Of a stretch of DNA of 64,000 bases, positions 7,715 to 52,805 are shown piece after piece. Source of the DNA: Malacoraja senta (Eukaryota); NCBI GenBank assembly GCA_038087875.1, contig CM075985.1:186001-250000 (forward strand), in the 5' to 3' direction. Numbering within the stretch: position 1 is the stretch's first letter; each line of letters starts with the position of its first letter. The notes under the pieces were generated by a model. That model ran no database searches, was not told the DNA's origin, and was given only the letters and a program-made list of their open reading frames with translations. The position numbers were made by a program, and so were the translations under genes.

Positions 7715-7870
7715 CTGTGAAACGTCACCTATCCATGTTCTTCACAGATGCTGCCTGACACGCTGAGTTACTCCAGCAATCTGTGAAACGTCATCTATCC
7801 ATGTTCTACACAGATGCTGCCTGACCCGCTGAGTTACTCCAGCAATCCGTGAAATGTCATCTATCCATGT
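7715..7870 (+). repeat. 66 bp tandem repeat, 2 units plus a partial (Penelope-tail derived)
   Basis: Unit CTGTGAAACGTCACCTATCCATGTTC...GAGTTACTCCAGCAAT, period 66. Confidence 0.9.
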
Positions 7871-9518: not shown

Positions 9519-10554
9519 CAGAGATGTTCTCCAGAGATGCTCCCTAACATTTGTCGTTTCAGGTCAGGACCCTTCCGGTTTGAGTGGGCCAGTGGAGTAG
9601 AGAAGCCAAGGCAGTTGTTGCACCAACAGTGGATATAAAAAGGTCCAGAGAGGGTAGAAGGGTGGGTAGGGGGAGAGGCGGGGGGGGATGTAGAAGACTG
9701 GAGACAGGATTGTCACTGGATGGATAGGATTCTCTCCCATAAAGAAAAGCTCAGAGGTGGCAGTAGAGCCCTACGTCCCTATGTTCCCAATGTAGGGGGT
9801 CCAGTACCAGGGGGTCACAGTTTAAGAATAAGACTCGCTGAGTCACTCCACCTTTTATCTTGGTCTATTAATGGATTCAAATCTACCTTAGATCTCCTTT
9901 TATCATCCTGCTTGGCACTCTCCACCGGCATTTTTGATACAGGTTCCTTTGTTTCTAAATACGTAGAGTGAATTTTAAAGCTCTAATCTGTTCAATATCT
10001 CGCAAACTGTGAACCCACTTCAAGTTGATGGATGGAATGGAGCCCGTCCGTCTCTCATGGTTACGGATGCAGTTCATTGTGATGTCGCCGGCCAGGCACA
10101 TTATGAGGTCACCTCTGATTATGATGGTTTACAAACTTGCGATCTTATGAATGGAAGGCCGGCCCAGAAGGGAATAAACCATTTCACCATATGACCACAG
10201 GTCACAGTGGTTATAACCAACTGGACTCAAGTGTTAGATACAAGGAACTCAGTTCAATTGAGTTTATTGTCACGTGTACGGAGAAATGCTTTTTGTCGCA
10301 TGTTAAAAACAGTTAGCAGAAAGACATTGCATGATTACAATCGAGCCATTTGCAATGTATAGATACATGGTAAAGGAATAACGTTTAGTGCAAGGAAAAG
10401 CCAGCAAGGATAGTCCGAGGGTCACCAATGAGGTAGATAGTAGTTCAGAACTGCTCTCTGGTTGTGGTAGGATGATTTAGTTGCCTGGTAACAGCTGGGA
10501 AGAAACTGTCCCTGAATCTGGAGGTGTGCGTTTTCACACTCCTGTACCTTTCCT

Positions 10555-11075
10555 AACTTGCAGAAGGACATTCTTACTATTGAGGGAGTGCAGCGTAAGT
10601 TCACCAGGTCAATATCCGGGGTGGCGAGACTTACGTATGATGGAAGCATGGGTAGACTGGGCTTGAATTCGCTGGAAATGAGAAGGATGAGAGGGTATCT
10701 TATGAAAACATATAACATTCTTAAAGGAGTTAAGGCTAGATGCAGGAACAATGTTCCCGATGTTCGGGGAGTCCAGAACCAGGGGTCACAGTTTAAGAAT
10801 AACGGGTTAGGCCATTTAGGACTCAGAAGAGGGAAAACATTTTCACGCAGAAAATCTGTAGAATTCTCTGCCACAGAAGGCAGTGGAGGCCAATTCACTG
10901 GATGTTTTCAAGTGAGTGTTGGATGTGGCTCTTTGGGCTAACAGAATCAAGGGATATGGGGAGATAGCAGGAATGGGGTATTGATTTTGGATGATCAGCC
11001 AAAATCATATTGAAAAATCATGCTAGCTCGAAGGGCCGAATGGCCTACTCCTGCACCTATTTTCTATGTTTCTAC
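10555..11075 (+). mobile_element. CR1 3' fragment (copy 2 about 42230-42750)
   Basis: QKDILTIEGVQRKFTR...LTYD.RM.RLGL followed by the 3' UTR. Confidence 0.85.
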
Positions 11076-11219
11076 GTCATGGTGAGTCCAGCACTCGTTG
11101 ACGTCTGGTCCTGAAGACGGGTCCTGAACCAAAACATCACCCACTCATGTTCTCCAGAGATGGTGCTCAACCCGCTGAGTTACTCCAGCACAAACAATAT
11201 TAAATCTCAAGTGTTTTCA

Positions 11220-11492
11220 TTTCGAGATACAGTGTGGCAACGGGCCCTTTGGCCCACCGAGTCCACGCCGACCAGTATTCACCTCTACACCCTCACTATC
11301 CTACACACTGGGGACTTTTTACCAAAGCCAATTAACCTACAAACCTGCACGTCTTTGGAGTGTGGGAGGAAACCGGAGCATCCGTAGAAAACCCACGCTG
11401 GTCACGAGGGGAACATACAAACTCTGTACAGACAGCACCTGGGTCTCCGGCACAGTGAGGCAGCAACTCTACCGCTGAGCCACACTGCCATG
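11220..11492 (-). mobile_element. tRNA-derived SINE (copy 2 about 42895-43167)
   Basis: Same family core as 6227-6553. Confidence 0.8.
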
Positions 11493-11920
11493 TTGGGGAA
11501 AAATACTTAAAAAACAGCAGAATATTTTTGCCATTTGCCAAATGAGAGTTGTCTATAGTCAAAGAGTGTGTAGTTTGTTCCTGGCACGAAAATACTTCTG
11601 CTTTATCAGTTTCACGCTTAACTCTATAAACCTAAAGACTCCATTGTTGGAATGCAATTCAATATTTGACAAATCTGAACACCTTAACAGACAGATATAA
11701 AGCACACAGAGGGATTACTGGTGTACATTTTCCCTTTGTAGTCCCTGAGAAATCAGTGGCTGTGGCAGAGGGTTTTTCTGATGTTCTAAGCCATGCCAAT
11801 CCAGATATGATTGAATGACGGAGAGGACTTGATGTACCAAATGGAGAAGGAACATCTCATTGGGTTTTAAAGTTTGCAGAGGGCTGACATACAACTTCCT
11901 TAGCATCAAGTGAATTGATC

Positions 11921-12215
11921 AGCATGGTGGCGCAGCGATAGACTAAGAGTTGCTGCCTTACAGTGCCAGAGACCCGGGTTTGATCCTGTCTACGTGTGCG
12001 TGTAGTTTGTACGTTCTCCCTGTGACCCACGTGGGATTCCTTCCGGTGCTCTGGTTTCCTCCCACATTCTAGAGATGTGCCGGTGTGTAGGTTAATTGAC
12101 GCCTGTAAATTGCCCCTAGTGTGAAGGATATGGGACTAGTGTACAGGTGATCGTTGGTTGGCATGGGCTCGGTGGGCGGAAGGGCCTGTTTTCACGCCAT
12201 CTCTCTAAAACAAAC
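11921..12215 (+). mobile_element. tRNA-derived SINE (copy 2 about 43597-43890)
   Basis: GGTGGCGCAGCG...GTTGCTGCCTTACAG..CCAGAGACCCGGGTT.GATCC head plus family core. Confidence 0.85.
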
Positions 12216-12484
12216 TATTGCCGTTACTTCGTTGGTCTCAGTTTAACATTGCTTGTGAAAGTCAGCAAAGTACAAGATTCTTTCTATAGCCCGCAGACCA
12301 GTGAGCCCATGTGTTCATATCTTTAACCAGACAGTCAGAACTTTTTTAGTTTAGTTTAGAGATACAGCACAGAATCAGGCCCTTCAGCCCACCGCGTCCA
12401 CGTCAACCAGTGATACCCGTGCATTAAACTACCCCACACACACTAGGGACAATTTACATTTATACCAAATTAACCTACTCTCTA

Positions 12485-13740
12485 GACTGACATCTTCAAC
12501 CTGTCACATGCCCAAGCAGTTGTCCCCACGTGCCTTAAAACCACCTCCCTCGTGCCGGTGCCAAAACACTCCACTGCAGCGAGCCTCAACGACTTCTGCC
12601 CAGTTGCACTTACTCCCATCATCACTAAGTGCTTCGAGAGGTTGGTCCTGGCACACCTCAAAGGCTGCCTACCTCCCACACTGGATCCCTATCAGTTCGC
12701 CTACCGCAAGAACAGGAGTACGGAGGATGCCATCTCAACGGCACTTCACTCCGCCCTCTCCCACCTCGACAACAGAGACACCTACGTGAGAATGCTGTTC
12801 ATCTCAGCATTTAACATCATTATCCCCTCAAAACTGATGACCAAACTCAGCGACCTGGGCATCGACCCCTCCCTCTGCAACTGGATACTGGTCTTTCTAA
12901 CCAACAGACCCCAGTCTGTTAGGTCAGACAACCACACCTCTTCAACCCTCACCCTGAACACCGGCTTTCCACAGGGCTGTGTGCTGAGCCCCCTCCTCTA
13001 CTCCCTCTTCACCTACGACTACACACCTGTACATGGTACTAACACCATCATCAAGTATGCAGATGATACAACAGTGATTGGCCTCATCAGCAACAACGAT
13101 GAGTCGGCCTATAGGGAGGAGGTCCAGCTCCTAGCAGCATGGTACGCTGACAACAACCTGGCCTGTAACTACAAGAAGACCAAGGAGCTCATTGTGGACT
13201 ACAGAAGGTCTAGGGGCGGCACGCACACTCCCATCCACATTAACGGGACGGAGGTGGAACGTGTTTCCAGCTTCAGGTTTCTGGGGGTCAACATCTCTGA
13301 TGACTTCTCTTGGACCCACAATACCTCAACACTGGTTAAGAAGGCTCACCAGCTTCTCTTCTTCCTGAGGGGACAAAAGAAGGTCCATCTGTCTCCTCAG
13401 ATTCTGGTGAACATCTACCGCTGCACCATCGAGAGCATCCTTACCAACTGTATCACAGGTTGGTATGGCAACTGCCTCCGACCGGAAAGCACTGCAGAGG
13501 GTGGTGAAAACTGCCCAACGCATCACCGGTTCCTCACTCCCCTCCATTGAGTCTGTCCAATGCAAGCATTGTCTGCGAAGGGCGCGCAGCATCATCAAGG
13601 ACTGCTCTCACCCCAGCCACATACTGTTTATCCTCCTCCCATCCGGTAGGCGCTACAGGTCTCTCCGTTGCCAGATCAGCAGGTTCAGGAACAGCTTCTT
13701 CCCTGTGGCTGTTACACAACTTAACTCTGTACCTTGGGGA
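12485..13740 (+). mobile_element. Rex1/Babar-type LINE RT fragment (ORF 12552-13550)
   Basis: [46 protein letters not shown] and YADD motifs. Confidence 0.88.
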
Positions 13741-13806
13741 TTGCCAGTCACCCATCCCGGACACTCCTTCCCCCAGAAAAATTGCACTACGCTAAAATTG
13801 TATTAC

Positions 13807-13807
<1 letters not shown>

Positions 13808-13840
<33 letters not shown>
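13808..13840. repeat. (TA)n microsatellite
   Basis: Perfect TA run; removed by the deletion in copy 2. Confidence 0.98.
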
Positions 13841-13842
<2 letters not shown>

Positions 13843-14496
13843 TGCTGTTCCATTATTCTATGTTCGCTCTTCTGGGTGAGATGCTAACTGCATTTCGCTG
13901 TCTCTGTACTGTACACTGCACAATGACAATAAAGATTGATTCTGAATCTGAAACCTACATGTCTTTGGATTGTGGGAGAAAACTGAAGATTTCGGGAAAA
14001 AAACCCACGCGGGTCAAGGGAAAATGTACAAATCTGTACTGACAGCACCCGTAGTCAGGATCGAACCCGGGTCTCTGGCACTGCAAGCAGTGTAAGCAAA
14101 GAACTCTACCGCTGCGCCACCGTGCCCACCCCTTTTCCCCAGGACAGAGATGGAATACTAGAGGGCATAGCTTTAACGAGAGTGGGGCAAAGTTTAAAGA
14201 TGTGTGGAGCAAGTTATAAGAGGTTAGAGTGCACCTTGAGTGTGTTGGCAGGGGTGGTGGAGGCAGATACAACAGTGGCATTTAACAGGTTTTTGGATAG
14301 GCAGGGAATGGAGGGATAATGATAATGTGCAGACAGATAAGAGTTGGCAGTGGTGTCACGTTTAGCACAGGCATTGTGGGCCGAAGGGGCGGTTCCTGTG
14401 TTGTACTGTTCTATGTTTTAAACCTCAGGTTATCAATCTTTATCTTTAACAAAGGGTTTGGTGGGGAAGGGAATGAGATGAGTTAAGACAAGCTGA

Positions 14497-14795
14497 TTTA
14501 AACTTTAGAGATATAGAGTGGAAACTGGCCTTTCGGCCCACCGAGACCACACCGACCAGCGATCACCCCGTACACTAGCACTACCCTACGCACTAGGGAC
14601 AATTTACAAATTTTCCAAAGCCAATTAACCTTGAAAACCTGCAGGTCTGTGGCGTGTGGGAGGAAACCGGAGCACCCGGAGAAAACCCACGCTGTCACAG
14701 GGAGAAAGTACAGGCAGCATCCCCGGTCATGATTGACCCCGGGTCTCTGGCGCTGTAAGGCAGCAACTCCATCGCTGCGCCACCGTGCCGCCCAA
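14497..14795 (-). mobile_element. tRNA-derived SINE (copy 2 about 46473-46770)
   Basis: Family head and core on the minus strand. Confidence 0.82.
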
Positions 14796-14989
14796 ATAGT
14801 TGCACATCAGATTAGACAAGTTAGGAAGAAGAACGTGTCCAACATTGTAGATTCAATTGCGGAGTTCAATTACTTCAGGCATATATAAATGCTAGGCGCG
14901 GCTGTTATAACCATATAACCATATAACAATTACAACAATTTTGGCTGTTGAGTAGAGCAACTACTCCTGAATAAAAAACTGCTGTGACA

Positions 14990-15690
14990 GTCCGGAGTCG
15001 CCTTCCAGAGGGTAGTGATTGAAATAGTTTGTTGCCAGGGTGAGAGGGGTCAGAGATGATCTTACCCGCTCGCTTCCTGGCCCTTGCAGTGTACAGTTCA
15101 TCAATGGAGGGAAGGTTGCAGCCAATAACCTTCTCTGCTGATCGGACGATTCGCTGCAGCCTCCAGGTGTCGTGCTTGGTGACTGAGCCAAACCAGACCA
15201 TGATGGGGATGGTGAGAACAGACTCTACGATGGTCGTGTAGAATTGGACCATCATTGCTTGTGGCAGATTGTGTTTCCTCAGCTGCCGCAGGAAGTACAT
15301 CATCTGTTGTGCCTGTTTGACTGTGGAGTCCATGGTAGCCCCCCACTTATGGTCCTTGGAGATGATGGTTCCAAGGAACTTAAAAGATTCCACAGATGTG
15401 ACTGTGGTGTTGTTGATGGTGAGTGGGGTGAGGGGAGGGGGAGCTCTCCTAAAGTCTACAATCAATTCCACTGTCTTAAGAGAATTGAGCTCCAGGTTGT
15501 TGCTTCGGCACCAGGACGCCAGCTGTGACACTTGCTGTCTGTAGGCCGATTCCTCCCCATCCTGGAACAGTCCAATCAGGGTTGTGTTGTCCGCAAACTT
15601 GAGAAGCTTAACTGACAGAGGTGAAGTCGTTGGTGTAGAGAGCGTAGAGGAGAGGAGAGAGTACGCAGCCTTGCGGTGCTCCTATGCTGA
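14990..15690 (-). mobile_element. Rex1/Babar-type LINE 3' fragment; target site of the LINE insertion in copy 2
   Basis: WCRSNNLELNSLKTVELIVDFRR...FKFLGTIIS. Confidence 0.85.
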
Positions 15691-15845
15691 GTGTTTACGG
15701 GTCCCAGATGTACTTTCCCAGCCAAAGTAAGTCAAATGGGCACTGGTGGGTGAAGAGTTGTAAACTAAGACCCTTGGACAGGTGAGTGGACAAGACAGGT
15801 TTAGAGGGGACAATGGACACAAGTGTGTGGGCCTTTGGTACCTTC

Positions 15846-16052
15846 TCAAGATGGCGTCTTGAACGGCGGGACCTTAACAAGATGGCTGCCGGCATCCGAC
15901 CAATCAACGGCGCCGACCTCACATGCCCTCACCAAGATGGCCACCATCAACCCCTCACAAAGATGGCCGCCGGCATCTGACCAATCAGCGGCGCCGATCT
16001 CACCTGCCCTCACCAAGATGGCCGCCATCAACCCCTCATAAAGATGGCCGAT
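15846..16052 (+). promoter_or_regulatory. CpG-rich VNTR with YY1-like (AAGATGGC.GCC) and CCAAT motifs; copy 2 52479-52730
   Basis: Six AAGATGGC motifs and two GACCAATC motifs in an 81 bp (54+27) period. Regulatory function is inferred from the motifs only. Confidence 0.5.
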
Positions 16053-17154: not shown

Positions 17155-20123
17155 AGTTTGATCTATCGGACCAACTACAGCATGAACAGGCAAAGATGAA
17201 AAAGATAATAAACAGAGAATAAGTGGTGGTGGGTTTCTTAAATGCGTATATTTTAATGCTAGGAGCATTGTAAGAAAGGTGGATGAGCTTAGAGCCTGGA
17301 TTGACACCTGGAAGTTTGATGTTGTGGCGATCAGTGAAACATGGTTGCAGGGGGGCTGTGATTGGCAAATAAATATTCCAGGATTTCGTTGCTTCAGGGG
17401 TGATAGAATTGGAGGGGCAAGAGGTGGGGGTGTTGCATTGCTTGTCAAGGAAAATATTACAGCAGTGCTTTGGCAGGATAGATTAGAGGGCTCGTCTAGG
17501 GAGGCTATTTGGGTGGGACTGAGAAATGGGAAAGGTGTAGCAACACTTATAGGGGTGTATTATAGACCGCCAAATGGGGAGCGAGAATTGGAAGAGCAAA
17601 TATGTAAGGAGATAGCAGATATTAGTAGTAAGCACAAGGTAGTGATTGTGGGAGATTTCAATTTTCCACACATAGACTGGGAAACACATTCTGTAAAAGG
17701 GCTGAATGGTTTGGAGTTTGTAAAATGTGTGCAAGATAGTTTTTTGCAGCAATACATAGAGGTACCTACTAGAGAAGGGGCAGTGCTAGACCTCCTGTTA
17801 GGAAATGAGACAGGGCAGGTGGCGGAGGTATGCGTCGGGGAGCACTTCGGGTCCAGTGATCACAATACCATTAGTTTCAATATAATTATGGAGAGGGTCA
17901 GAACTGGACCTACGGTTGAGATTTTTGTTTGGAGAAAGGCTAACTTTGAGGAGATGCGAAAGGATTTAAAAGGAGTGAATTGGGACATGTTGTTTTATAG
18001 GAAGGATGTAGAAGAAAAATGGAGGACATTTAAGGGTGAAATTTTAAGAGTACAGAATCTTTATGTCCCTGTTCGGTTGAAAGGAAATAGTAAAAAATGG
18101 AAAGAGCCATGGTTTTCAAGGGAAATTGGACACTTGGTTCGGAAAAAGAGAGAGATCTACAATAATTATAGGCAGCATGGAGTAAATGAGGTGCTTGAGG
18201 AGTATAAAGAATGTAAAAAGAATATTAAGAAAGAAATTAGAAAAGCTAAAAGAAGATATGAGGTTGCTTTGGCAAGTAAGGTGAAAGTAAATCCAAAGGG
18301 TTTCTACAGCTATATTAATAGCAAAAGGATAACAAGGAATAAAATTGGTCCATTAGAGAGTCAGAGTGGACAGCTATCTGCAGAGCCAAAAGAGATGGGG
18401 GAGATATTGAACAATTTCTTTTCTTCGGTATTCACGAAGGAGAAGGATATGGAATTATGTGAGGTAAGGGAAACAAGCAGAGTAGCAATGGAAACTGTGA
18501 GATTCAAAGAAGAGGAGGTGCGGACACTTTTGAAAAATATGAAAACGGATAAGTCTCCAGGTCCTGACAGGATATTCCCTAGGACATTGAGGGAAGTTAG
18601 TGTAGAAATAGCAGGGGCTATGACAGAAATATTTCAAATGTCATTAGAAACGGGAATAGTGCCGGGAGGATTGGCGTACTGCGCATGTTGTTCCGTTGTT
18701 GAAACAGGGTTCGAAGAGTAAACCTAGCAATTATAGACCTGTTAGTTTGACGTCAGTGGTGGGCAAATTAATGGAAAGGATACTTAAAGATAATATATAT
18801 AAGCATCTGGATAAGCAGGGTCTGATTAGGAACAGTCAACATGGATTTGTGCCTGGAAGGTCATGCTTGACTAATCTTCTTGAATTTTTCGAAGAGGTTA
18901 CTAGGGAAATTGATGAGGGTAAAGCAGTGGATGTTGTCTATATGGACTTCAGTAAGGCCTTTGACAAGGTTCCTCATGGAAGGTTGGTTAAGAAGATTCA
19001 ATTGTTGGGTATTAATGGTGGAGTAGCAAGATGGATTCAACAGTGGCTGAATGGGAGATGCCAGAGAGTAATGGTGGATGGCTGTTTGTCAGGTTGGAGG
19101 CCGGTGACTAGTGGCGTGCCTCAGGGGTCTGTGTTGGGTCCACTGTTGTTTGTCATGTACATCAATGATCTGGATGATGGTGTGGAAAATTGGATTAGTA
19201 AGTATGCAGATGATACTAAGATAGGTGGTGTTGTGGATAATGAAGTAGATTTTCAAAGTCTACAGAGAGATTTAGGCCATTTGGAAGAGTGGGCTGAAAG
19301 ATGGCAGATGGAGTTTAATGCTGACAAATGTGAGGTGCTACATCTCGGCAGGACAAATCAAAATAGGACGTACACGGTAAATGGTAGCGAATTGAGGAAT
19401 GCAGTTGAACAGAGGGATCTAGGAATAACTGTGCATAGTTCCCTGAAGGTGGAATCTCATGTAGATAGGGTGGTAAAGAAAGCTTTTGGTGTGCTGGCCT
19501 TTATAAATCAGAGCATTGAATATAGAAGTTGGGATGTAATGTTAAAATTGTACAAGGCCAATTCTGGAGTATGGAGTACAATTTTGGTCGCCTAATTATA
19601 GGAAGGATGTCAACAAAATAGAGAGAGTACAGAGGAGATTTACTAGAATGTTGCCTGGGTTTCAGCAACTAAGTTACAGAGAAAGGTTGAACAAGTTAGG
19701 TCTTTATTCTTTGGAGCGCAGAAGGTTAAGAGGGGACTTGATAGAGGTCTTTAAAATTATGAGCGGGTTAGACAGAGTGGACGTGGATAAGCTTTTCCCA
19801 TTGAGAGTAGGGAAGATTCAAACAAGGGGACATGACTTGAGAATTAAGGGACAGAAGTTTAGGGGGAACATTAGGGGGAACTTCTTTACTCAGAGAGTGG
19901 TAGCTGTGTGGAATGAGCTTCCAGTGGAAGTGGTGGAGGCAGGTTCGATGTTATCCTTTAAAAATAGATTGGATGTGTATATCGACGGGAAAGGAATGGA
20001 GGGTTATGGTCTGAGTGCAGGTAGATGAGACTAGGGGGAAGTATTTATTTTTAATTTAAAAAAAAAATTTTAAAAAATGTTCGGCACGGACTTGAAGGGC
20101 CGAGATGGCCTGGTTATATGGTT
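17155..20123 (+). mobile_element. 5'-truncated CR1 LINE with near-complete ORF2 (APE endonuclease plus RT), two frameshifts, 6 bp TSD AATATT
   Basis: ORFs 17279-18721 (VAISETW, GDFNFP, SDHN), 18696-19595 (YADD) and 19648-20028. AATATT at 17149-17154 and 20124-20129; GGTTAT tail. Confidence 0.95.
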
Positions 20124-32356: not shown

Positions 32357-34199
32357 TCACACGTCTCTACTTCCATCAGACTCCAACATCGTAATGTCTT
32401 CTTCTAGGTGCCGCAATAAGACCTGCCCACCAGTTTCCACGTTACCCAAGGCTGTCATTAGTCTGGTGATGATACATTTAACAATAGCAATTCCCACTAA
32501 CAAACACATGATCACTATTGCTGCATTGATGGCCATGCTGATAATCCCCCAAAACCCCAGTTTCCCCATCCAACACCCTCCTTCATTCCATCAAGCAGGG
32601 TAGTAATGTCCTCTTGATGTTTGGTGATATTACTAGTTCTATCCTGAACTCCCATCATACATTTTTCTTTTACAATAGCACACGTCCCTCCCTCACGGGC
32701 CAACAGATAATCTAAGGCATATCTATTCTGTAAAGAGAACAGACGCATTTCTGATAGTTGGGTTTTTATTGCCTCCAAGGCGCCTGTAGTGGCATTTCCC
32801 AAAATGGTTAGTCCACAAATCATATAGTTTCGATGTTTTGCTGCCAACCCTCCCCCTACACCTCTGAAAGTAAGCAGGCTTAGTACTCCCCATCCCGCAG
32901 CATCCCACCTAGATGTTCCCATTGTAGTTGGGTTTCTCCAATTGGCACAGAATTCGGCGGATATTGCCCTGCGCAGAGTCCTTTGGTTTTGTCGGGACCA
33001 ACTCTCTGGGCAGGGAACGGTGGTGGGGACAAGGGTCCTGATGGCTACGTTCTTTGGAAAAGGAGGTTTTAGCACATTGGTCCCTTTGCCATTGAAAAAG
33101 AAGTAATACCCTTCCTCGGTGTATATGGACCCATGACAGTCCATGCGTGTATTAATCACCTCGCCACCCTTTGCCCAGTCAATCCAATTGCTTGAAATCC
33201 AATTGGTGTATCTTGGGATGGGCAAGTGATAGAATCCTACAGTTAGATGGGTTCCATTGGCCCACCCACAAAGCAGTTGAAACCCTGCAGAGACTGGGAC
33301 GCATCTTTTGGGAATGGTGCATTGGATGCCCTTAGATGTGCTGTTGCAACTAGGTTGTCGTGGGGTTCGTACTATGCACGTAATGTTGGAAGGGACGTCA
33401 ACAACTATGCACCCGTATCCCTGGTTAGTGAAGCATCATCCGTATTGTCTATTGTCGGTGTTAGGGGTAAAGTTACACGGCATTAGTGGTTCTACTCTGG
33501 TACCCGAAGAGTTTTGACAGCTTGGGTATGAATGCTTATTGTCGCCAGGTAATGGCAAACAGTTAGCTGGTGGGGCTAAGAACTCATCATAATAGATGGT
33601 GACAGCTTTGACCGGAACTGGCATCTCATCTTGACACTTTACTAATCGTTAAATCCTTCCCCACTCAGGAGATACTGTAAATAGGCTAATAACAGATTTC
33701 ATAGCGGGGTAACACACAACTTGCCCTTTACCAAATAATTCATTATGGGTCCGTATAAACACGTTAGTGTCTTTTTCTTCAAATTCTCCCTTTTCCCGTA
33801 TTTGTTGTTCAGGTTCTGTCCTTTGGAGCCCCGGGTGGACTTGTAATGCTACTTGATAACATAGTCCATCATACAAGTGTTTATTTAGAGTTCGGTCCTC
33901 CCCGTGGTTCCTCCTGCAAGATAAGTCAACCCTGCATATCCGGTACCCACATGGAAACTCCCAGAGTGACTGATCAATTAGGTAGAGGCTTCAGTTAGTC
34001 TGTTGCATTTTGCCATGGCAGTAGTTAATTTATTTATGTTCCATCTTCCGAGGACTTCTGGGCCTCTACATTGTACAACATCTCCTTTGCAGAGGTGAAA
34101 TATCCTATATGCGTGTCCTGGGACACATCGTCGAATCTCTCCTTTATTTCCCCCTGTCTGCAGAAGCATTAGGTTGCATGGCAGGAAAAATCGCCTCAT
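32357..34199 (-). pseudogene. env: ERV-A env, disrupted, copy 2
   Basis: ORF 32515-33225 spans the SU end, furin site RTLRR and ISD. A 13 bp deletion before the TM anchor causes a frameshift; SU has stops. Confidence 0.9.
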
Positions 34200-34475
34200 T
34201 TGAATATATCTGGAAAATGCAAAGGGTTACAAAAAGTTCATTTCTTACTTAATTGACTTAATCAACTATTCACTCAAGTTAACCATCCTTCAGTCAGTCA
34301 GTCCAGTTATCAGTCACATATTCTTAACCATATAGCAAAATAAGGATTCAAAACTAAACTTATAATGCTACAACTAAACGTATAATGATACAACTAAACT
34401 TATAATGATACAACTCCCAAGCAAAGCAGCAATGTAAAAACTAAAAACTATGAGTTGAAAATAAAATGACTCTTC

Positions 34476-35973
34476 TCACCCCTTATAATTGGGCTCCCCA
34501 ATCAGTTTGCAGTGGTGCAGATGAACCCATGCAGCACGACCCTCGACCTTGGCAGCGGTTGGAGTGGTGAGGAGGACCTGGAAGGGACCATCCCAACGTG
34601 AGTCCAAGTGCTTACGCTTCCAGTTCCTGACCCGCACATAGCAACATGTCTCAATATTAGATGGAACTTTGAGCGCTGGCGCCTCACCATTTGCAGCCCT
34701 GACCTGTGAATGAGAAGTTCGCAAAGCATGGGTTAAAGTTAATACATAGGATGTCATTTCCTCAGTCATCTGGTAGAAATGGACCGCTGCGGGGGCATGG
34801 AAATGGACCGCCTGGTCATTCCATGGCATCCGTAAAGGTCGACCATATATTATTTCCGCAGGCGTCAGTCGTGCCGTACCAGAAGGAGTGGTCTGTATCT
34901 GAAAAAGAGCTACAGGAAGCAGTTTAAACCATGTTAAGCCAGTCTGTGCCACTAATTTAGCTAATTTGGTTTTCAAAGTCTGATTTGCCCGTTCCACCAA
35001 TCCGGCGGCCTGAGGTCTATATGCACAATGGAGCTGTTGATGTATCTGTAATTGTTGGCACATTTCTTTGTTTACTGCAGCAATAAAATGAGGACCTTTA
35101 TCGGAACTTAAACGCGCAGGAACACCGAATCGCGGTATGATTTCGCGTAACAATATTTTTACAATGGTAGACGCCTTATTGTCAGTGGTCAGGTATGCAT
35201 CAATCCATTTACTGAAAACATCGACAATTACAAGAACATACTTATAACACTGACACCTTTTCAACTCAATGTAGTCCATTTGCAAGGTCTCAAATGGACC
35301 TGCTGGTAAAGGGATCTTACCTGGTTCACAGGGCAAGCCTTTACCTGGATTATGCTGCTGGCAAATCAGACATTGCTGGCTGACACGCTGGGCCAAGTCC
35401 AGAAGTTTTGGATGCCACCAGGTGTCTAAAAGCATATCATTTCCGGCCTTGGCACCACAATGAGTTGCAAAGTGTACACATTCAATAATCCATAACGCAA
35501 GTTCATCAGACATGCAAGTCTGGCCTGCAGGCGTAACCCATAAGCTAGTGACAGGATCAAACACACAGCCCTGGTCCTGCCACAGCTGTTTTACCTGTGC
35601 AGGAGCGTCCTCCTGTATTTGAAGTACTTCCTGGATGGTTGGCATTCCTTTTTCCGGGGGAGACTGATTCTTACTGGAATTTTTAGTCTGCCTCATCATT
35701 CGGGGCACAACAACCTGGTTAGTCCAAGAAGCTTTTTTTAGCAGCACCATCCGCAAGGCGATTGCCGATATCTATAGGGCTCTGGCCTGATGTGTGGGCA
35801 CGAACTTTAATAACTGCAAGCTGACTGGGCAATTGGATTGCCTGTAAAAGGTTGGAAACTAACTTCTGGTGTGAAATAACTGTTCCTGATGAGGTCAGGA
35901 AGCCTCGATTTTTCCACAATTGCCCATAATCGTGAACGACTCCGAAAGCATACTGTAAATCAGTGTAAATATT
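34476..35973 (-). pseudogene. pol: ERV-A pol 3' part, copy 2; integrase frame intact
   Basis: 426 aa ORF (34476-35756) with HHCC, D-D(35)-E and GPF/Y C-terminal domain. One frameshift in RNase H; no RT, PR or gag upstream. Confidence 0.95.
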
Positions 35974-39528: not shown

Positions 39529-42500
39529 TTATAACCATATAACCATATAACAATTACAGCACGGAAACACGCCATCTCGGCCCTTCTAGTCCGTGCCGAA
39601 CACTTATTTTCCCCTAGTCCCATCTACCTGCACTCAGACCATGACCCTCCATTCCTTTCCCATCCATATACCTATCCAATTTATTTTTAAGTGATAAAAT
39701 CGAACCTGCCTCCACCACTTCCACTGGAAGCGCATTCCGCACAACTACCACTCTCTGAGTAAAGGAGTTCCCCCTCATGTTACCCCTAATCTTCTGTTCC
39801 TTAATTCTCAAGTCATGTCCTCTTGTTTGAATCTTCCCTACTCTCAATGGGAAAAGCTTATCCACGTCAACTCTGTCTATCCCTCTCATCATTTAAAGAC
39901 CTCTATCAAGTCCCCCTTGACGTTCTGCGTTCCAAAGAATAAAGACCTAACTTGTTCGACCTTTCTCTGTAACTTAGTTGTTGAAACTCAGGCAACATTC
40001 TAGTAAACCTCCTCTGTACTCCCTCTATTTTGTTGACATCTTCCCTATAATTAGCCGACCAAAATTGTACACCATACTCCAGAATTGGCCTCACCAATGC
40101 CTTGTACAATTTTAACATTACATTCCAGCTTCTATACTCAATGCTCTGATTTATGAAGGCCAGCACACCAAAAGCTTTCTTTCCCACCCTATTTACATGA
40201 GATTCCACCTTCAGGGAACTATGCACAGTTATTCCTAGATCCCTCTGTTCAACTGCATTGCTCAATTCGCTACCATTTACCATGTACGTCCTATTTTGAT
40301 TTGTCCTGCCAAGATGTAGCACCTCACACTTATCTGCATTAAACTCCATCTGCTATCTTTCAGCCGACTCTTCCAAATGGCCTAAATATCTCTGTAGACT
40401 TTGAAAATCGACTTCATTATCCGCAACACCACCTATCTTAGTATCATCTGCATACTTACTAATCCAATTTACCACACCACCATCCAGATCATTAATGTAC
40501 ATGACAAACAACAGTGGCCCCAACACAGATCCCTGAGGCACCCCACTAGTCACCGGCCTCCAACCTGACAAACAGCCATCCACCATTACTCTCTGGCATC
40601 TCCCATTCAGCCACTGTTGAATCCATCTTGCTACTCCACCATTAATACCCAACCATTGAACTTTCTTAACCAACCCTCCATGAGGAACCTTGTCAAAGGC
40701 CTTACTGAAGTCCATATAGACAACATCCACTGCTTTACCCTCATCAATTTCCCCAGTAACCTTTTCAAAAAATTCAAGATTAGTCAAACATGACCTTCCA
40801 GGCACAAATCCATGTTGACTGTTCCTAATCAGATCCTGTTGATCCAGATGCTTATATATATATTATCTCTAAGTATCCTTTCCATTAATTTGCCCACCAC
40901 TGACGTCAAACTAACAGGTCTATAATTGCTAGGTTTACTCTTAGAACCCTTTTAATACAATGGAACAACATGCGCAGTACGCCATCCTCCGGCACTATTC
41001 CCGTTTCTAATGGCATTTGAAATATTTCTGTCATAGCCCCTGCTATTTCTACACTAACTTCCCTCAAGACTTATCCACTTTTATATATTTTTTAAAGTGT
41101 CAGTACTTCCTCTTCTTTTAATCTCATAGTTTCCATAGCTTTTCTACTTGTTTCCCTTACCTCACATAATTCAATATCCTTCTCCAGAGATGTTCTCCAG
41201 AGATGCTCCCTAACATTTGTCGTTTCAGGTCAGGACCCTTCCGGTTTGAGTGGGCCAGTGGAGTAGAGAAGCCAAGGCATTTGTTGCACCAACAGTGGAT
41301 ATAAAAAGGTCCAGAGAGGGTAGAAGGGTGGGTAGGGGGAGAGGCGGGGGGGGGGGGGGGGATGTTGAAGACTGGAGACAGGATTGTCACTGGATGGATA
41401 GGATTCTCTCCCATAAAGAAAAGCTCAGAGGTGGCAGTGGAGCCCAACGTCCCTATGTTCCCAATGTAGGGAGTCCAGAACCAGGGGGGTCACAGTTTAA
41501 GAATAAGACTCGCTGAGTCACTCCACCTTTTATCTTGGTCTATTAATGGATTCAAATCTACCTTAGATCTCCTTTTATCATCCTGCTTGGCACTCTCCAC
41601 CGGCATTTTTGATACAGGTTCCTTTGTTTCTAAATACATAGAGTGAATTTTAAAGCTCTGATCTGTTCAATATCTCGCAAACTGTGAACCCACTTCAAGT
41701 TGATGGATGGAATGGAGCCCGTCCGTCTCTCATGGTTACGGATGCAGTTCATTGTGATGTCGCCGGCCAGGCACATTATGAGGTCACCTCTGATTATGAT
41801 GGTTTACAAACTTGCGATCTTATGAATGGAAGGCCGGCCCAGAAGGGAATAAACGACTTCACCATATGACCACAGGTCACAGTGGTTATAACCAACTGGA
41901 CTCAAGTGTTAGATACAAGGAACTCAGTTCAATTGAGTTTATTGTCACGTGTACGGAGAAATGCTTTTTGTCGCATGTTAAAAACAGTTAGCAGAAAGAC
42001 ATTGCATGATTACAATCGAGCCATTTGCAATGTATAGATACATGGTAAAGGAATAACGTTTAGTGCAAGGTAAAGCCAGCAAGGATAGTCCGAGGGTCAC
42101 CAATGAGGTAGATAGTAGTTCAGAACTGCTCTCTGGTTGTGGTAGGATGATTTAGTTGCCTGGTAACAGCTGGGAAGAAACTGTCCCTGAATCTGGAGGT
42201 GTGCGTTTTCACACTCCTGTACCTTTCCTAATTTGCAGAAGGACATTCTTACTATTGAGGGAGTGCAGCGTAAGTTCACCAGGTCAATATCCGGGGTGGC
42301 GAGACTTACGTATGATGAAAGAATGGGTAGACTGGGCTTGAATTCGCTGGAAATGAGAAGGATGAGAGGGTATCTTATGAAAACATATAACATTCTTAAA
42401 GGAGTTAAGGCTAGATGCAGGAACAATGTTCCCGATGTTCGGGGAGTCCAGAACCAGGGGTCACAGTTTAAGAATAACGGGTTAGGCCATTTAGGACTCA

Positions 42501-45830: not shown

Positions 45831-47796
45831 GTTGTTCCATTATTCTATGTTCACTCTTCTGGGTGAGATGCTAACTGCATTTCGCTGTCTCTGTACTCTA
45901 CACTGCACAATGACAATAAAGATTGATTCTGAATCTGAAACCTACATGTCTTTGGATTGTGGGAGAAAACTGAAGATCTCGGAAAAAAAACTCACGCAGG
46001 TCAAGGGGAAAATGTACAAATCTGTACTGACAGCACCCGTAGTCAGGATCGAACCCGGGTCTCTGGCACTGCAAGCAGTGTAAGCAAAGAACTCTACCGC
46101 TGCGCCACCGTGCCCGCCCCTTTTCTCCAGGACAGAGATGGAATACTAGAGGTCATAGCTTTAACGAGAGTGGGGCAAAGTTTAAAGATGTGTGGAGCAA
46201 GTTATAAGAGGTTAGAGTGCATCTTGAGTGTGTTGCCAGGGGTGGTGGAGGCAGATACAACAGTGGCATTTAACAGGTTTTTGGATAGGCAGGGAATGGA
46301 GGGATAATGATAATGTGCAGACAGATAAGAGTTGGCAGTGGTGTCACGTTTAGCACAGGCATTGTAGGCCGAAGGGGCGGTTCCTGTGTTGTACTGTTCT
46401 ATGTTTTAAACCTCAGGTTATCAATCTTTATGTTTGGTGGGGAAGGGAATGAGATGAGTTAAGACAAGCTGATTTAAACTTTAGCGATATAGAGTGGAAA
46501 CTGGCCTTTCGGCCCACCAAGACCACCCCGACCAGCGATCACCCCGTACGCTAGCACTACCCTATGCACTAGGGACAATTTACAAATTTTCCAAAGCCAA
46601 TTAACCTTGAAAACCTGCAGGTCTGTGGCATGTGGGAGGAAACCGGAGCACCTGGAGAAAACCCACGCCGTCACAGGAAGAAAGTACAGGCAGCATCCCC
46701 GGTCAGGATTGACCCAGGGTCTCTGGCGCTGTAAGGCAGCAACTCCATCGCTGCGTCACCGTGCCGCCCAAATAGTTGCACATCAGATTAGACAAGTTAG
46801 GAAGAAGAACGTGTCCAACATTGTAGATTCAATTGCGGAGTTCAATTACTTCAGGCATATATAAATGCTAGGCGCCGCTGTTATAACCATATAACCATAT
46901 AACAATTACAACAATTTTGGCTGTTGAGTAGAGCAACTACTCGTGAATAAAAAACTGCTGTGACAGTCCGGAGTCGCCTTCCAGAGGGTAGTGATTTAAA
47001 TAGTTTGTGGCCAGGGTGAGAGGGGTCAGAGATGATCTTACCCGCTCGCTTCCTGGCCCTTGCAGTGTACAGTTCATCAATGGAGGGAAGGTTGCAGCCA
47101 ATAACCTTCTCTGCTGATCGGACGATTCGCTGCAGCCTCCAGGTGTCGTGCTTGGTGACTGAGCCAAACCAGACCATGATGGGGATGGTGAGAACAGACT
47201 CTACGATGGTCGTGTAGAATTGGACCATCATTGCCTGTGGCAGATTGTGTTTCCTCAGCTGCCGCAGGAAGTACATCATCTGTTGTGCCTGTTTGACTGT
47301 GGAGTGCATGGTAGCCCCCCACTTATGGTCCTTTATTTATTTATTTATTTATTTATTTATTTTATTTATTTATTTTATTCCGAACAAGTAAAGACATTAA
47401 AGACATTGATATTAACAAAATCGAAATTATCAAACAATTGAACATTGCAATCAACATTTACAATTGAGAAGAACAAAATCAAGGTTCCAATGTCCAACTC
47501 AGAGTCTGTACAAGCTCGAAAAGGAGTGAGAAGAAGAATAACTTATTAAATCTCACCCCTTTTCCCCAACACTTCTATCGTATTTAAAAATCAATTCCTT
47601 ACTAATAATAGTACTGCCCTAGGCAATTTCCCATAATACATACAGACACTTATATACATTCAACTATTATGTACATACAATCTTCATATTTGAAGTACCC
47701 AACATCAGTGAACAATAGTAAACAAGATAAACATCAACAATATTAACAAGATAAACATCAACGATTGTAAACAAGATAAACATCAACCCCCACTTG

Positions 47797-50700
47797 TCAA
47801 CCATCCCCTCCATCCCTGTACCCCTTGAGCATTATTTTTTTATATATCATTTTAAAATGATTCATGTTTGTGCATTGCTTCAATTCCCCGTTCAATTTAT
47901 TCCACACTCCTACTCCACAAACCGAAATACAAAAGGATTTTCTAGTCGTACGGACTTGTTGTTTCTTAAAGTTAAATATTCCTCTTAAATTGTAACCCCC
48001 CACACGCTCGTTAAATAATTTTTGAATGTTTCCAGGTAAATTTTTATTTTTGGCCCTAAACATTATCTGAGCTGTTTTGAATGTGACCAAATCTTCCAAT
48101 TTTAATAATTTTGACTCTAAAAATAATGGATTCGTATGACCCAGATACCCAGCATTATGGATAATACGAACCGCTCTTTTTTGCATCATTGTTAATGAGT
48201 GTATCGAATTTCCATAATTATTTCCCCAGACTTCTGTACAATAATCCAAGTAGGGCAAAATTAATGCACAACAAAGAACACGGAGTGATCTGCAATCCAG
48301 AGCCCGCCTGGCTTTGCATAACACAGAGACACTCCCTGACAATTTTAACCCCACATGTTCAATATGTGATTTCCAGCCTATTCCACCGTCAATCACAACC
48401 CCAAGAAATTTACCCTCATGCACTCTTTCAACTTCCACCCCATCCATCTTTACACTTACCAGGGGACTTATTCTACAATTACCAAATAACATTATTTTAG
48501 TTTTACTCAGATTTAATGAAACTTTATTACTATCAAACCATATTTTCAATTTACCCATTTCTTTTATTATTTTATCCAATAGCCTTTTTAAATTTTCCCC
48601 AGAGCAAAAAATATTTGTATCATCTGCAAACAAAACCAGCCTCAAGACATTGGACACATTACAAATATCATTTATGTACATGATAAATAATTTTGGGCCC
48701 AGCACTGACCCCTGTGGTACACCACACACAATGTCCAAACATGTAGAACCATGACTACCCAGATCTACAAACTGTTGCCTGTTACTTAAGTAGCTTTTAA
48801 TCCAGTCCAGTACTATTCCTCTAATTCCATACCTCTCCAACCTTTTTAATAAAATATCATGATTAATTGTATCAAATGCTTTTTTTATGTCAATGAATAT
48901 CCCAGCTGCATATAATTTCTTATCAATGGCGTTTGTGATGTCTTCAATTAATTCTAGTATTGCAAGTGATGTTGATCTATTTGTTCTGAATCCATATTGA
49001 CTTTCTGTTAATAATGTATTATTTTCTACAAATTTGTCTAGTCTATTATTAAACATTTTTTCTAATATTTTGGAAAATTGTGGGAGTAAGGAAACAGGTC
49101 TATAGTTTGTAAAATGATGCTTGTTCCCTGTTTTGTATATTGGTATTATTTTTGCTATTTTCATTTTAATTGGAAAAGTGCCGGTCTGGAAGGATAAATT
49201 ACAGATGAATGTTAAAGGTTTGGAGATCCCCTCAATGACCATCTTAACTAGCGACATGTCAATGTCATTGAAATCGGTAGACTTCTTATTTTTACATGTT
49301 TTGACAATATCCAGCAGTTCTTTCTCTTCTACTGCCGTAAGAAACATAGAGCAGGGATTTCTTTCCACTAATTTCTCAGGTGTTTCTCCAGATGTCCCTG
49401 AATCAGGGATTTGTTTAGCCAGGTCTGGTCCAATATTAACAAAAAAATTATTAAAGCTATTAGCTATATCTTCCATATTGTAAATTTCCTTATCCTTATC
49501 AATAAAATACTTCGGGTAATCTGTTCTCCCCGGACCACCTCGGACAATGCTATTAAGTATGCTCCATATTCCTTTCACATTGTCTTTATTGTCATCTAAT
49601 TTCTTCTTATAATAATCTTTCTTGCTTTCTCTTATAATGCAAGTTAATTTATTTTTATACTTTTTATATTTATTTTCTGTATCTTTAGTTCTCTCTCTTA
49701 TAAAATCTCTGTATAGGCCATTTTTTTTTTACAAGCATTTTGTAATCCCTTTGTAATCCATGGACATTTAGTATATTTTGATTTTCTATTATATTCTTTA
49801 ATTGGACAATTTTTATCATATAATAACTTAAACATATCAATAAATGTTTCATAAGCACTATCAATGTCTCTTTTTTGGTATATTATATCCCAGTTTTGTG
49901 CCAATAGATCCTTTTTTAGTGCATTGATAGCTTCCTCCGATCTCACTCTTCTATATTCTATTAATCCGCTTGGTTTGTTGTTCCTGTGGACACCATCATA
50001 AACTACAAAAACTGGCAGATGGTCACTTATATCATTAATTAATAATCCACTTACTATTTTATTTTCCAAATCATTGTTAAATATATTGTCAATGAGTGTA
50101 GCGCAATGGGAAGTAATTCTACTCGGTCTAGTGATTTTCGGAAATAGACTCATGCTGTACATAGTATTAATAAAATCTTCTGTAAGGTTGTGTTGATTAG
50201 GATTTAGTAGGTCAATATTGAAATCTCCACATAAAAACACTGATTTACTACCTGTTGTTGAAAACATACTCTCCATCCAGCCCCTGAAGATTTCAATACT
50301 TGACCCCGGTGCCCTATATATACAGCTAATGATTACATTTTTATTTCCACCATTACTTATTTCTATAGTTATACATTCATGCAGATTGTCAACCACAGTT
50401 GTCATATTATCTACTACCTTATAATTCAGAGTTGTATCCACATATAGTGCTACCCCTCCTCCCCCCTTATTTTTTCTATTGATGTAATTGAAGTCATATC
50501 CGTCCATCTCAAAATCAATTCCCTTTTCTTGATTAATCCATGTTTCAGATATTGCGATGACATTGAATGGTTGTGAAAATTTTTGTAAATACTCTTTAAT
50601 ACTATTGAAATTTGTATAGAGGCTCCTGCTATTAAAGTGGATAATAGATAATTTGCCTTTTGTATTAATATTCTGATTATACTGCTCCTCTGTGTAGTAG

Positions 50701-50903
50701 CAGCAGATATTTTTGTCGTTAGAATTAAAGTAAAAATTATTGTCCGGGTCTATATCGTATTCCAAATCCTGTAAATTGTGTTCTGTATATTCGAATGGTT
50801 GTAACTTCGGTTGTTCCTTTTCGCTTATTATTTTAGTTACTTGACTTCCATTTCCAGATGTTAATGGCTGAATTCCTTCAGTGTTTTCCCGTTTTATGAT
50901 CAT
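47797..50903 (-). CDS. LINE ORF2 (APE endonuclease plus RT), single -1 frameshift in a 10-A run at 49721-49730
   Basis: AISETW, GDFNID and ISDHLP (EN); NYRPVSLLPQFSKILEK, PQGSVLGP and FADD (RT). Adding one A joins the 401 aa and 593 aa ORFs. Confidence 0.88.
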
Positions 50904-51622
50904 TGGTATGTGTCCAGGTCTGCAATATCTCTGATGACCAGCACTTTGGCTTCCTCTGGTGTTCCATTTAATTTAATAAAGATTTTACAGTTTGCAGTCC
51001 AGGTATTTAATATTTTTTTTTGTTTCTTAAGGTATCGTGCTTGTCGGGCTATATCGGCATTTCGTTTTGTTAGGTGCTCATTCATGTATACTTTTGTTCC
51101 CTTCAGCTTTCTTCCTTGTTTTAGGAGACTGACTTTATATTTCCTGCTTACAAACCTTATTATGATGGCAGGTTTGTCATCACTATTTTTAACATCTTTC
51201 GATTTTTTCCTGGGCAGTGGGTGACAAGCCTCGATGTTATCGCAGTCTACTTGTATACCTTTCGACTGCAGGAAGGCCGCCACCTGTTGCTCCGTGGAGC
51301 TTGTGTCCATTTCCCCGGGCTCCCCCCCGTTTTCGTCAGTCACCGCCCGTGCGTATGACCGGGGCTTTATACTGAGCCCGGTAATGATGATGTTGTTCTC
51401 TCTGGTGTACTGCTCCAGATCTGCAACTCTGCTCTCCAGGAACACCAGTCTCCGGTCCTTTTCGGCGCTCTGGATCCGAAGATCCCTTACCTCCGCCACG
51501 AGGTCGAGGATGGCTTTCTGCTGTTTTTTGACAGCAGAAATCTCCTCCGACAAGAACTCCAGCGCTCTTTTTATTTTGTCGCTATCCTCCGTTGTTATTA
51601 CCTTCTTCGGAGGCATGGTCAC
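50900..51622 (-). CDS. LINE ORF1 protein (coiled coil plus L1-type RRM/CTD), 240 aa
   Basis: Coiled coil (LEFLSEEISAVKKQQ...RVADLEQYTR) and IEACHPLP, IIRFV.RK, VYMNEHLT, TWT.NCKIFIK motifs. Confidence 0.88.
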   Translation of the reverse strand: MTMPPKKVITTEDSDKIKRALEFLSEEISAVKKQQKAILDLVAEVRDLRIQSAEKDRRLVFLESRVADLEQYTRENNIIITGLSIKPRSYARAVTDENGGEPGEMDTSSTEQQVAAFLQSKGIQVDCDNIEACHPLPRKKSKDVKNSDDKPAIIIRFVSRKYKVSLLKQGRKLKGTKVYMNEHLTKRNADIARQARYLKKQKKILNTWTANCKIFIKLNGTPEEAKVLVIRDIADLDTYQ

Positions 51623-51730
51623 CAGCTACTCAGGTAAACTCCAGCTACTCAGTTTTTCAATGAAAGCCAAGGTCTAACCTCGGATAATCCTCTCACCACC
51701 GCTCACCGCTGCCGCCATTTTCCGCCATTT

Positions 51731-51984
51731 GAACAGTAAGAAAACCGTTTGACTCCACAGCTAATTTCTAAATTTCTCACTCTGACTCTGTGGCACCATT
51801 TTGTTTTCCTTAATTCTTTATGAACTTAGGAACTTCTGAATTCAACGTTCATACCACTGGGTTGTAAGCTACCCAAGCAGAATATGAGCTGCTGTTCCTC
51901 CAGTTTGCATGTGGCCTCACTCTGGTAATAGAGTAGGCCCAGGACAGGAAGGTCGGTGTGGGAATGAGAAAGGCAGTTTTTGTT
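51731..51984 (-). mobile_element. Penelope-like GIY-YIG 3' fragment plus spacer, inside the LINE's TSD
   Basis: LGLLYYQSEATCKLEEQQLIFCLGSLQPSGMNVEF; GTCCTT TSD at 47328-47333 and 51985-51990. Confidence 0.75.
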
Positions 51985-52805
51985 GTCCTTGGAGATGATG
52001 GTTCCCAGGAACTTAAAAGATTCCACAGATGTGACTGTGGTGTTGTTGATGGTGAGTGGGGTGAGGGGAGGGGGAGCTCTCCTAAAGTCTACAATCAATT
52101 CCACTGTCTTAAGAGAATTGAGCTCCAGGTTGTTGCTACGGCACCAGGACGCCAGCTGTGACACTTGATGTCTGTAGGCCGATTCCTCCCCATCCTGGAT
52201 CAGTCCAATCAGGGTTGTGTTGTCCGCAAACTTGAGAAGCTTGACTGACAGAGGTGAAGTCGTTGGTGTAGAGAGCGTAGAGGAGAGGAGAAAGTACGCA
52301 GCCTTGCGGTGCTCCTATGCTGAGTGTTTACGGGTCCCAGATGTACTTTCCCAGCCAAAGTAAGTCAAATGGGCACTGGTGGGTGAAGAGTTGTAAACTA
52401 AGACCCTTGGACAGGTGAGTGGACAAGACAGGTTTAGAGGGGACAATGGACACAAGTGTGTGGGCCTTTGGTACCTTCTCAAGATGGCGTCTTGAACGGC
52501 GGGACCTTAACAAGATGGCCGCCGGCATCCGACCAATCATCGGCGCCGACCTCACATGCCCTCACCAGGATGGCCGCCATCAACCCCTCACAAAGATGGC
52601 CGCCGGCATCCGACCAATCAGCGGTGGCGATCTCACCTGCCCTCACCAAGATGGCCACCGACATCCGACCAATCAGAGGCGCCGACCTCACCACGATGGC
52701 CGCCATCAACCCCTCATAAAGATGGCCGATGGAACTCTCTGCCACAGAAGGGATCAGGGGGTACGGAGAGAAGGCAGGTACAGGATACTTGGTTGGATGA
52801 TCAGC

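What the first reader, a model, noticed from the sequence alone, without database searches (positions are those of the whole stretch)
47797..51622. Full-length LINE carrying a genomic fossil of ADAR-type A-to-I hyper-editing
Between about 48115 and 48560, roughly 20 residues deviate from the family motif as I recall it (ERVHENKFLGVIIDDKISWK.HIKH...SRSISVL.KAK..LDYKSLHILYC...PYLNYC.EVWGNNYK). The window reads ERVHEGKFLGVVIDGGIGWKSHIEH...SGSVSVLCKARRALDCRSLRVLCC...PYLDYCTEVWGNNYG. Nearly all differences are reachable purely by A>G on the sense strand: AAT>GGT, ATA>GTG, GAT AAA>GGT GGA, AGC>GGC, TAC>TGC, CAT>CGT, AAT>GAT. Further patches lie at about 47800-47925 (GVGVW, DGGDG), 49515-49560 and 50240-50360, plus three AAC>AGC changes in ORF1 (QSAEK, LESRV, FVSRK). 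The frame is preserved, with no stops. This is the pattern expected if the RNA was hyper-edited by ADAR, then reverse-transcribed and integrated in the germline. APOBEC G>A fossils in retroelements are well known; A>G fossils in a LINE from a cartilaginous fish would be unusual evidence of ADAR acting on retrotransposition intermediates.
Basis: partly seen in the sequence, partly recalled or inferred. Interest (0 to 1): 0.85.

Follow-up and report, generated by a model that had tools for sequence, protein, structure and literature searches.

The report
ADAR editing scar in a LINE
One young copy of a jumping gene carries 57 one-strand A-to-G changes in dense patches that none of 167 sister loci shows, likely because an RNA-editing enzyme (ADAR) altered its RNA before that RNA was copied into the chromosome; raw reads to rule out an assembly error were not available.

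Summary
The core observation is real. Against 29 sister copies, this full-length LINE (minus strand, 51730-47334) has 57 sense-strand A>G changes, no T>C and 4 other private changes. They lie in three patches within 48097-49640 (36 of 87 A in the core), and the 5' neighbour follows the ADAR order T>A>C>G. None of 167 other loci exceeds 3 A>G per 200 nt. A 6-bp target-site duplication, a (TAAA)n tail and an empty paralogous site mark an ordinary retrotransposition. Best reading (0.8): ADAR hyper-edited a duplexed part of the RNA, which was then reverse-transcribed into the genome. The double-strand partner and the donor were not found, and no sequencing runs were listed, so an artefact is unlikely but untested. 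Precedents are integrated retroviruses; my paper searches found no germline LINE case. This scan noted two similar cases in other genomes (unchecked by me).

The parts
47328..47333 (.). Target-site duplication, 3' side (6 bp)
   Evidence: Present once at the empty paralogous site 15352-15357 and twice here
47334..47379 (-). (TAAA)n 3' tail of the LINE
   Evidence: Sequence; same tail in sister copies
47380..47796 (-). 3' UTR, unedited
   Evidence: 0 A>G among 249 A in 47345-48096
47797..49728 (-). ORF2, reverse-transcriptase part (643 aa); FADD motif intact; holds all 57 A>G
   Evidence: PF00078 E 1.1e-37
48097..48522 (-). Main edited patch: 44 of 172 A read G; core 48246-48460 has 36 of 87
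48749..48842 (-). Second edited patch: 5 of 35 A read G
49521..49640 (-). Third edited patch: 8 of 60 A read G
49721..49730 (-). A10 run that splits ORF2; length varies among copies of every lineage (slippage or homopolymer error)
   Evidence: 26 of 63 copies show 10 A, 31 show 11, 5 show 12, 1 shows 8
49698..50972 (-). ORF2, endonuclease part (424 aa), unedited
   Evidence: PF03372 E 4e-9, PF14529 E 2.2e-6
50900..51616 (-). ORF1 (238 aa), unedited
   Evidence: no Pfam family over its cut-off
51617..51730 (-). 5' UTR starting with a short tandem AAATGGCGG unit (YY1-like internal promoter motif; label recalled, not tested)
   Evidence: Shared by full-length copies
51731..51984 (-). Extra 254-bp segment inside the target-site duplication, unedited, made of two old repeat pieces; source not found in the assembly
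51985..51990 (.). Target-site duplication, 5' side (6 bp)

Best explanation
This is a recent full-length insertion of an active LINE family whose template RNA was likely hyper-edited by ADAR (A to inosine) over three patches and then likely copied into the chromosome by target-primed reverse transcription, which would write G at each inosine. Shown: 57 sense-strand A>G, none on the other strand, ADAR-type 5' context, insertion hallmarks, absence from sister copies. Inferred: the patches were double-stranded, most likely with an antisense transcript of another family copy, since the RNA has no long hairpin of its own. Inferred: the reverse transcriptase was made before editing or came from another copy, since the edits change 34 codons. 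Speculative: the extra 254-bp 5' segment marks an unusual read-through donor transcript. The event is rare and is a dead end so far (no daughter copy carries the edits).
For: 57 A>G, 0 T>C, 4 other private changes; about 0.9 expected at the family rate of 106 per 489,780 sites. 5' neighbour in the patches T 26/79, A 28/116, C 2/33, G 1/39 (chi-square p 2e-4), the order U>A>C>G given for ADAR in PMC11019741. Core density 41% matches the 40-50% quoted there for long perfect duplexes. Codon positions 24/17/16 and 12:42 synonymous to non-synonymous against 39:102 for unedited W-A sites (p 0.47), so no selection; an older subfamily differs mostly at third positions and evenly. No indel in the tract, flanks show no T>C excess against the empty paralog. 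TSD and tail. A-deaminase (PF02137) genes are in this genome. Zebrafish editing is highest in ovary and testis (PMC8096273).
Against: No raw reads seen, so neither DNA status nor inheritance is shown. No duplex partner: longest internal inverted match 36 nt at 72%; predicted pairing 0.42 for edited and 0.42 for unedited A; no family piece in 15 flank stretches of up to 10 kb beside five same-lineage copies and beside the window. No 3' G preference (7/45 against 28/115 for A; p 0.67), although human ADARs and zebrafish sites show some. Donor not found. One case only: 0 of 167 other loci. PMC5224506 found no editing in over 2.5 kb of expressed human L1 RNA. PF02137 also covers ADAT/ADAD, which I did not separate.
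Confidence: 0.8

Rival explanations
1. Assembly or sequencing artefact: the G letters are not in the animal's DNA (for example polishing with edited RNA reads, or base-call error).
For: No reads could be checked. The assembly likely has homopolymer errors (A10/11/12 mixed in every lineage). Clustered same-type errors have entered reference genomes, though as G>A (PMC2873906).
Against: One substitution type, one strand, ADAR context, no indels, and only 2 private changes in the 2.1 kb upstream. Short RNA reads could not be placed on one of over 200 copies that are about 99% alike, and would not agree on 57 sites (inference). 167 other loci of the same assembly are clean.
Confidence: 0.07
2. Same enzyme, different route: an unedited copy inserted first and a 1.5-kb tract was later overwritten by cDNA from an edited RNA (gene conversion or RNA-templated repair), or the cDNA switched between edited and unedited RNAs.
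For: Edits are confined to the middle 1.5 kb; 813 A upstream and 249 A downstream are untouched. The foreign 5' segment shows that a template jump is possible here.
Against: All lineage markers match one sibling (L008) on both sides of the tract; patchy editing needs no second event; no unedited allele with the same junction in the assembly.
Confidence: 0.06
3. Deamination of adenine in DNA, by ADAR on a DNA:RNA hybrid (R-loop with antisense RNA, or during second-strand synthesis).
For: ADARs edit DNA in model hybrids (review PMC12925331 citing Zheng 2017).
Against: That review describes it at A-C mismatches or with hyperactive mutants. Editing of first-strand cDNA would read T>C on the sense strand; 0 seen. 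Inosine in DNA is normally repaired (recalled).
Confidence: 0.03
4. Polymerase error: a burst by polymerase eta (A>G at W-A, recalled) or by the reverse transcriptase under a skewed nucleotide pool.
For: 54 of 57 sites have a 5' A or T, also the recalled pol-eta motif.
Against: 57 of 58 private or near-private changes at A are to G, with runs of up to 4 and 67% (18/27) of T-A sites hit in the core: far above recalled error rates of a few percent, with no accompanying changes at C or G. Pool-driven RT errors favour G>A and U>C (recalled).
Confidence: 0.04

Closest known systems
[quoted passage not shown]
   Same: Clustered A>G on the RNA-sense strand written into chromosomal DNA by reverse transcription; rare among copies; up to about half of A changed.
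   Different: Those are exogenous LTR retroviruses in somatic or cultured cells, with short tracts. Here it is a non-LTR element inserted by target priming, in a genome assembly, over 1.5 kb of ORF2, with no inverted repeat in cis.
APOBEC G>A 'DNA editing' fossils in endogenous retroviruses (PMC4866542)
   Same: A single strand-biased, clustered, motif-biased hypermutated copy among near-identical young siblings.
   Different: Other base change and enzyme, cDNA not RNA as substrate; that screen covered LTR elements and DNA transposons, not LINEs, and called clusters other than G>A and C>T negligible.
ADAR hyper-editing of long dsRNA (PMC11019741)
   Same: 5' order U>A>C>G, 40-50% conversion, 5' G avoided.
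   Different: Normally seen only in RNA; no 3' G preference here; duplex partner unknown.
ADAR1 restriction of human LINE-1 (PMC5224506)
   Same: ADAR meets LINE RNA in the retrotransposition particle.
   Different: Reported as editing-independent, with no edits found in L1 RNA; here an edited RNA seems to have completed insertion.
Fish LINEs with endonuclease plus reverse transcriptase ORF2 (teleost-named relatives at roughly 51-67% identity)
   Same: Domain order, ORF2 of about 1020-1060 aa, FADD motif.
   Different: Clade (CR1/L2 group, recalled) not tested; this copy is hypermutated and carries a foreign 5' segment.

Membership tests
ADAR hyper-edited sequence | A>G only, on the transcribed strand | tested here: met
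   57 A>G, 0 T>C on the sense strand
ADAR hyper-edited sequence | Dense clusters, up to about half of A | tested here: met
   36 of 87 in the core; 0 of 5000 permutations as clustered
ADAR hyper-edited sequence | 5' neighbour U>A>C>G with G depleted | tested here: met
   33%, 24%, 6%, 3%
ADAR hyper-edited sequence | Mild 3' G preference | tested here: not met
   7/45 (16%) against 20-24% for other bases, p 0.67; weak feature, small sample
ADAR hyper-edited sequence | Long double-stranded substrate | tested here: inconclusive
   None in cis; antisense RNA in trans could not be tested
ADAR hyper-edited sequence | Host encodes and expresses ADAR in germ cells | tested here: inconclusive
   14 PF02137 matches on 5 contigs; subfamily and expression not determined
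LINE insertion by target-primed reverse transcription | Endonuclease and RT ORF2, ORF1, 3' simple-repeat tail | tested here: met
LINE insertion by target-primed reverse transcription | Target-site duplication against an empty site | tested here: met
   6 bp; empty paralog at 15352-15357
Heritable germline insertion | Edits in genomic DNA reads and in other individuals | not testable with these tools
   No run was listed
APOBEC-edited retroelement | Sense-strand G>A clusters | tested here: not met
   2 G>A in the whole copy
CR1/L2-group clade | RT phylogeny with named clade references | not tested
   Label recalled from motifs; homologues carry no clade names

The most novel reading that the evidence does not exclude
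ADAR-hyper-edited LINE RNA can finish retrotransposition in the germline, so RNA editing is a rare but recurring route to dozens of heritable DNA changes at once, and young LINE copies across animal genomes hold a countable fossil record of germline double-stranded RNA and ADAR activity, the A>G counterpart of APOBEC fossils in endogenous retroviruses.
Probability: 0.6. Interest if true: 0.82.

Novelty: new variant of a known kind. Interest (0 to 1): 0.68.

Why it matters
ADAR restriction of LINE-1 is reported as editing-independent and genomic editing fossils have been sought almost only as APOBEC G>A in LTR elements. A LINE copy with a clean ADAR signature would show that edited LINE RNA exists in cells that pass on DNA, that inosine-rich RNA can still be inserted, and that an RNA edit can become an inherited mutation. 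It makes a direct test possible: an A>G cluster screen of young LINE families across assemblies would measure how often germline LINE RNA is double-stranded and edited. In this family the rate is low (0 of 167 further loci, about 1.8% upper bound), so it is not a main defence here.

Tried and rejected
Sequencing runs: none was listed for 48120-48490, so no reads were laid; this is no evidence either way. Other edited copies: none in 167 loci, none in a letter-collapsed k-mer scan of the held loci (other hits had 8-14 sites against L002, the level of lineage differences), none in 3 more close copies checked against L002. A duplicate or daughter carrying the edits: best other match 92%; 3' junction unique. 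Hairpin in cis: rejected. Inverted copy near same-lineage copies or the window: none in the stretches fetched. Source of the 5' segment: best matches 91% and 86%, partial; it shows no A>G excess (1 of 18 differences). T>C excess of an older subfamily (105 against 56): mostly third-position and even, ordinary divergence. Carmi et al. 2011 was not held.

Full report
Anatomy. The finding is a full-length LINE on the minus strand: ORF1 (51616-50900), an ORF2 with endonuclease (PF03372, PF14529) and reverse transcriptase (PF00078) domains, a 3' UTR and a (TAAA)n tail. The window holds a roughly 32-kb duplication at about 98% identity, and the other unit has the empty site. That fixes the insert at 47334-51984 with a 6-bp target-site duplication. 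The insert includes 254 bp (51731-51984) upstream of the family's 5' end that none of the held loci has. The 3' junction occurs once in the assembly. The family is young and numerous: 225 exact matches to one RT motif, most copies about 99% alike, and 19 of 57 copies spanning ORF2 have an open frame of 1000 aa or more.

The observation. Against the per-column majority of 29 long sister copies the window copy differs at 68 sites in 47600-51720: 57 A>G on the sense strand, 0 T>C, 4 other private changes, 1 shared G>A and 6 lineage markers. All 57 lie in 48097-49640, in three patches holding 44 of 172, 5 of 35 and 8 of 60 A; the core 48246-48460 has 36 of 87. The median gap is 5.5 nt against 49 in permutations (0 of 5000). 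About 0.9 A>G would be expected at the family rate. ORF2 is split at an A10 run; 26 of 63 copies show 10 A, in all lineages, so this is slippage or a sequencing error and is unrelated to editing.

Signature. The base 5' of edited A is T 26/79, A 28/116, C 2/33, G 1/39. PMC11019741 (passages) gives U>A>C>G for ADAR1 and ADAR2 and 40-50% conversion for perfect duplexes over about 50 bp. There is no 3' preference here (p 0.67), which counts mildly against. Codon positions are hit evenly and the synonymous share equals that of unedited W-A sites, as expected for one burst without selection. Of 37 residues that differ from sibling L026 in the RT part, 34 come from A>G; 11 become Gly, 15 are seen in none of about 70 homologues, and two nearly invariant residues change (70 of 70 and 68 of 69); the catalytic FADD is intact and the profile score drops only from 1074 to 1050 bits. 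The protein is likely impaired; this is not shown.

How common. I screened 168 loci including the window copy: the top hits of two DNA searches (chosen by score, so biased to unedited copies), the first 100 of 225 matches of one edit-tolerant pattern, and the further places among 126 matches of three more. Ten loci held twice and 25 non-family or junction loci were dropped before counting. The other 167 have at most 3 A>G per 200 nt, with 106 A>G and 111 T>C in 489,780 sites. Some loci are assembly duplicates (for example L002 and L003 share flanks), so independent insertions are fewer. Copies shorter than about 1.35 kb and other families were not screened. No second copy carries the edits.

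Mechanism. Shown: strand, type, clustering, context, insertion hallmarks. Inferred: part of a sense LINE RNA formed a duplex, ADAR turned A to inosine, and target-primed reverse transcription wrote C opposite inosine, giving G on the sense strand. The duplex was not a hairpin of the element: no long inverted repeat, equal predicted pairing of edited and unedited A in a natural sibling, longest helix 12 bp. An antisense transcript from one of hundreds of near-identical copies is the likeliest partner; none was identified, and 15 flank stretches beside five same-lineage copies and the window held no family piece. The 254-bp 5' segment is unedited and its source is not in the assembly by three searches; it may come from a read-through donor absent in this animal or from a template jump. 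The genome has adenosine-deaminase-domain genes (14 matches on 5 contigs; ADAR, ADAT and ADAD not separated). In zebrafish, repeat editing is highest in ovary and testis (PMC8096273, passages), which makes germline editing in a fish plausible.

Rivals. An artefact cannot be excluded without reads (none listed), but the tract has no indels, the flanks show no matching excess against the empty paralog (T>C 3 of 31 and 2 of 13 differences), and the rest of the copy is nearly perfect. Later overwriting of an unedited copy by edited cDNA fits the confined tract but needs a second event. ADAR on DNA in hybrids is described at mismatches or with mutants (PMC12925331, passages). Polymerase eta shares the W-A motif (recalled) but not the purity or density.

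What is known. A>G clusters ascribed to ADAR are described in integrated retroviruses: avian viruses (seen only through the review PMC12925331) and three BLV proviruses (PMC8025556, passages). The genome-wide fossil screen PMC4866542 (passages) covered LTR elements and DNA transposons, never mentions ADAR in the main text, and calls other cluster types negligible; its supplements, which I did not open, may hold A>G counts. PMC2873906 (passages) treats A>G clusters as RNA-trace editing. PMC5224506 (passages) found no editing in expressed L1 RNA. PMC11817618 (passages) proposes ADAR plus reverse transcription as a somatic mutation route in cancer; I took no evidence from it. Carmi 2011 is recalled only (not held). 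Paper searches aimed at precedent (listings and abstracts' starts) showed no report of an ADAR-edited LINE copy in a genome; some searches were for context; subscription journals are mostly not covered. Two earlier notes of this scan describe similar A>G-scarred LINE copies in other genomes; I did not check them, and they are leads, not support.

Verdict. Real in the assembly, narrower than first described, most likely an ADAR scar carried into DNA by retrotransposition (0.8). It is a new variant of a known kind: known for retroviruses, not found in print for a LINE by my searches. Interest 0.68, held down by the single case, the missing duplex partner and the lack of reads.

Noticed in passing
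window 1-16023 and 31537-52656: A head-to-tail duplication of about 32 kb at 97-98% identity near the contig start; could be a true segmental duplication or two haplotypes joined in the assembly, in which case the LINE insertion is heterozygous.
   Followed up: partly
window 820-4451 and 32515-35771: Endogenous retrovirus-like frames in both duplication units: envelope (PF00429, PF22307) and integrase (PF00665, PF18697) in the second unit; broken into several frames.
   Followed up: partly
window 49721-49730 and sister loci: The A run between endonuclease and RT is 10, 11 or 12 long within every lineage; about 40% of copies read out of frame there. Sequencing error, RT slippage or a recoding site is undecided.
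   Followed up: partly
window 51838-51978: Piece of an abundant repeat (3,677 first-look candidates for the query holding it) inside the 5' extra segment; recalled as Penelope-like, no Pfam match.
   Followed up: partly
L146:153-2773: A family copy with an inverted 5' part (twin-priming type); such copies would give antisense RNA when transcribed.
   Followed up: no
L250 and L252: An older subfamily at 87.5% identity with a mostly synonymous C-for-T bias (105-106 against 55-56); L253 and L255 are a more distant family at 67%.
   Followed up: partly
window 17186-20028: A long CR1-type LINE (label recalled) with endonuclease and RT frames, inverted relative to related pieces at 7952-9401 and 39605-41067.
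   Followed up: no
L080, L081, L101: Three equally truncated family copies spaced about 8 kb apart on one contig, a local tandem amplification after insertion.
   Followed up: no
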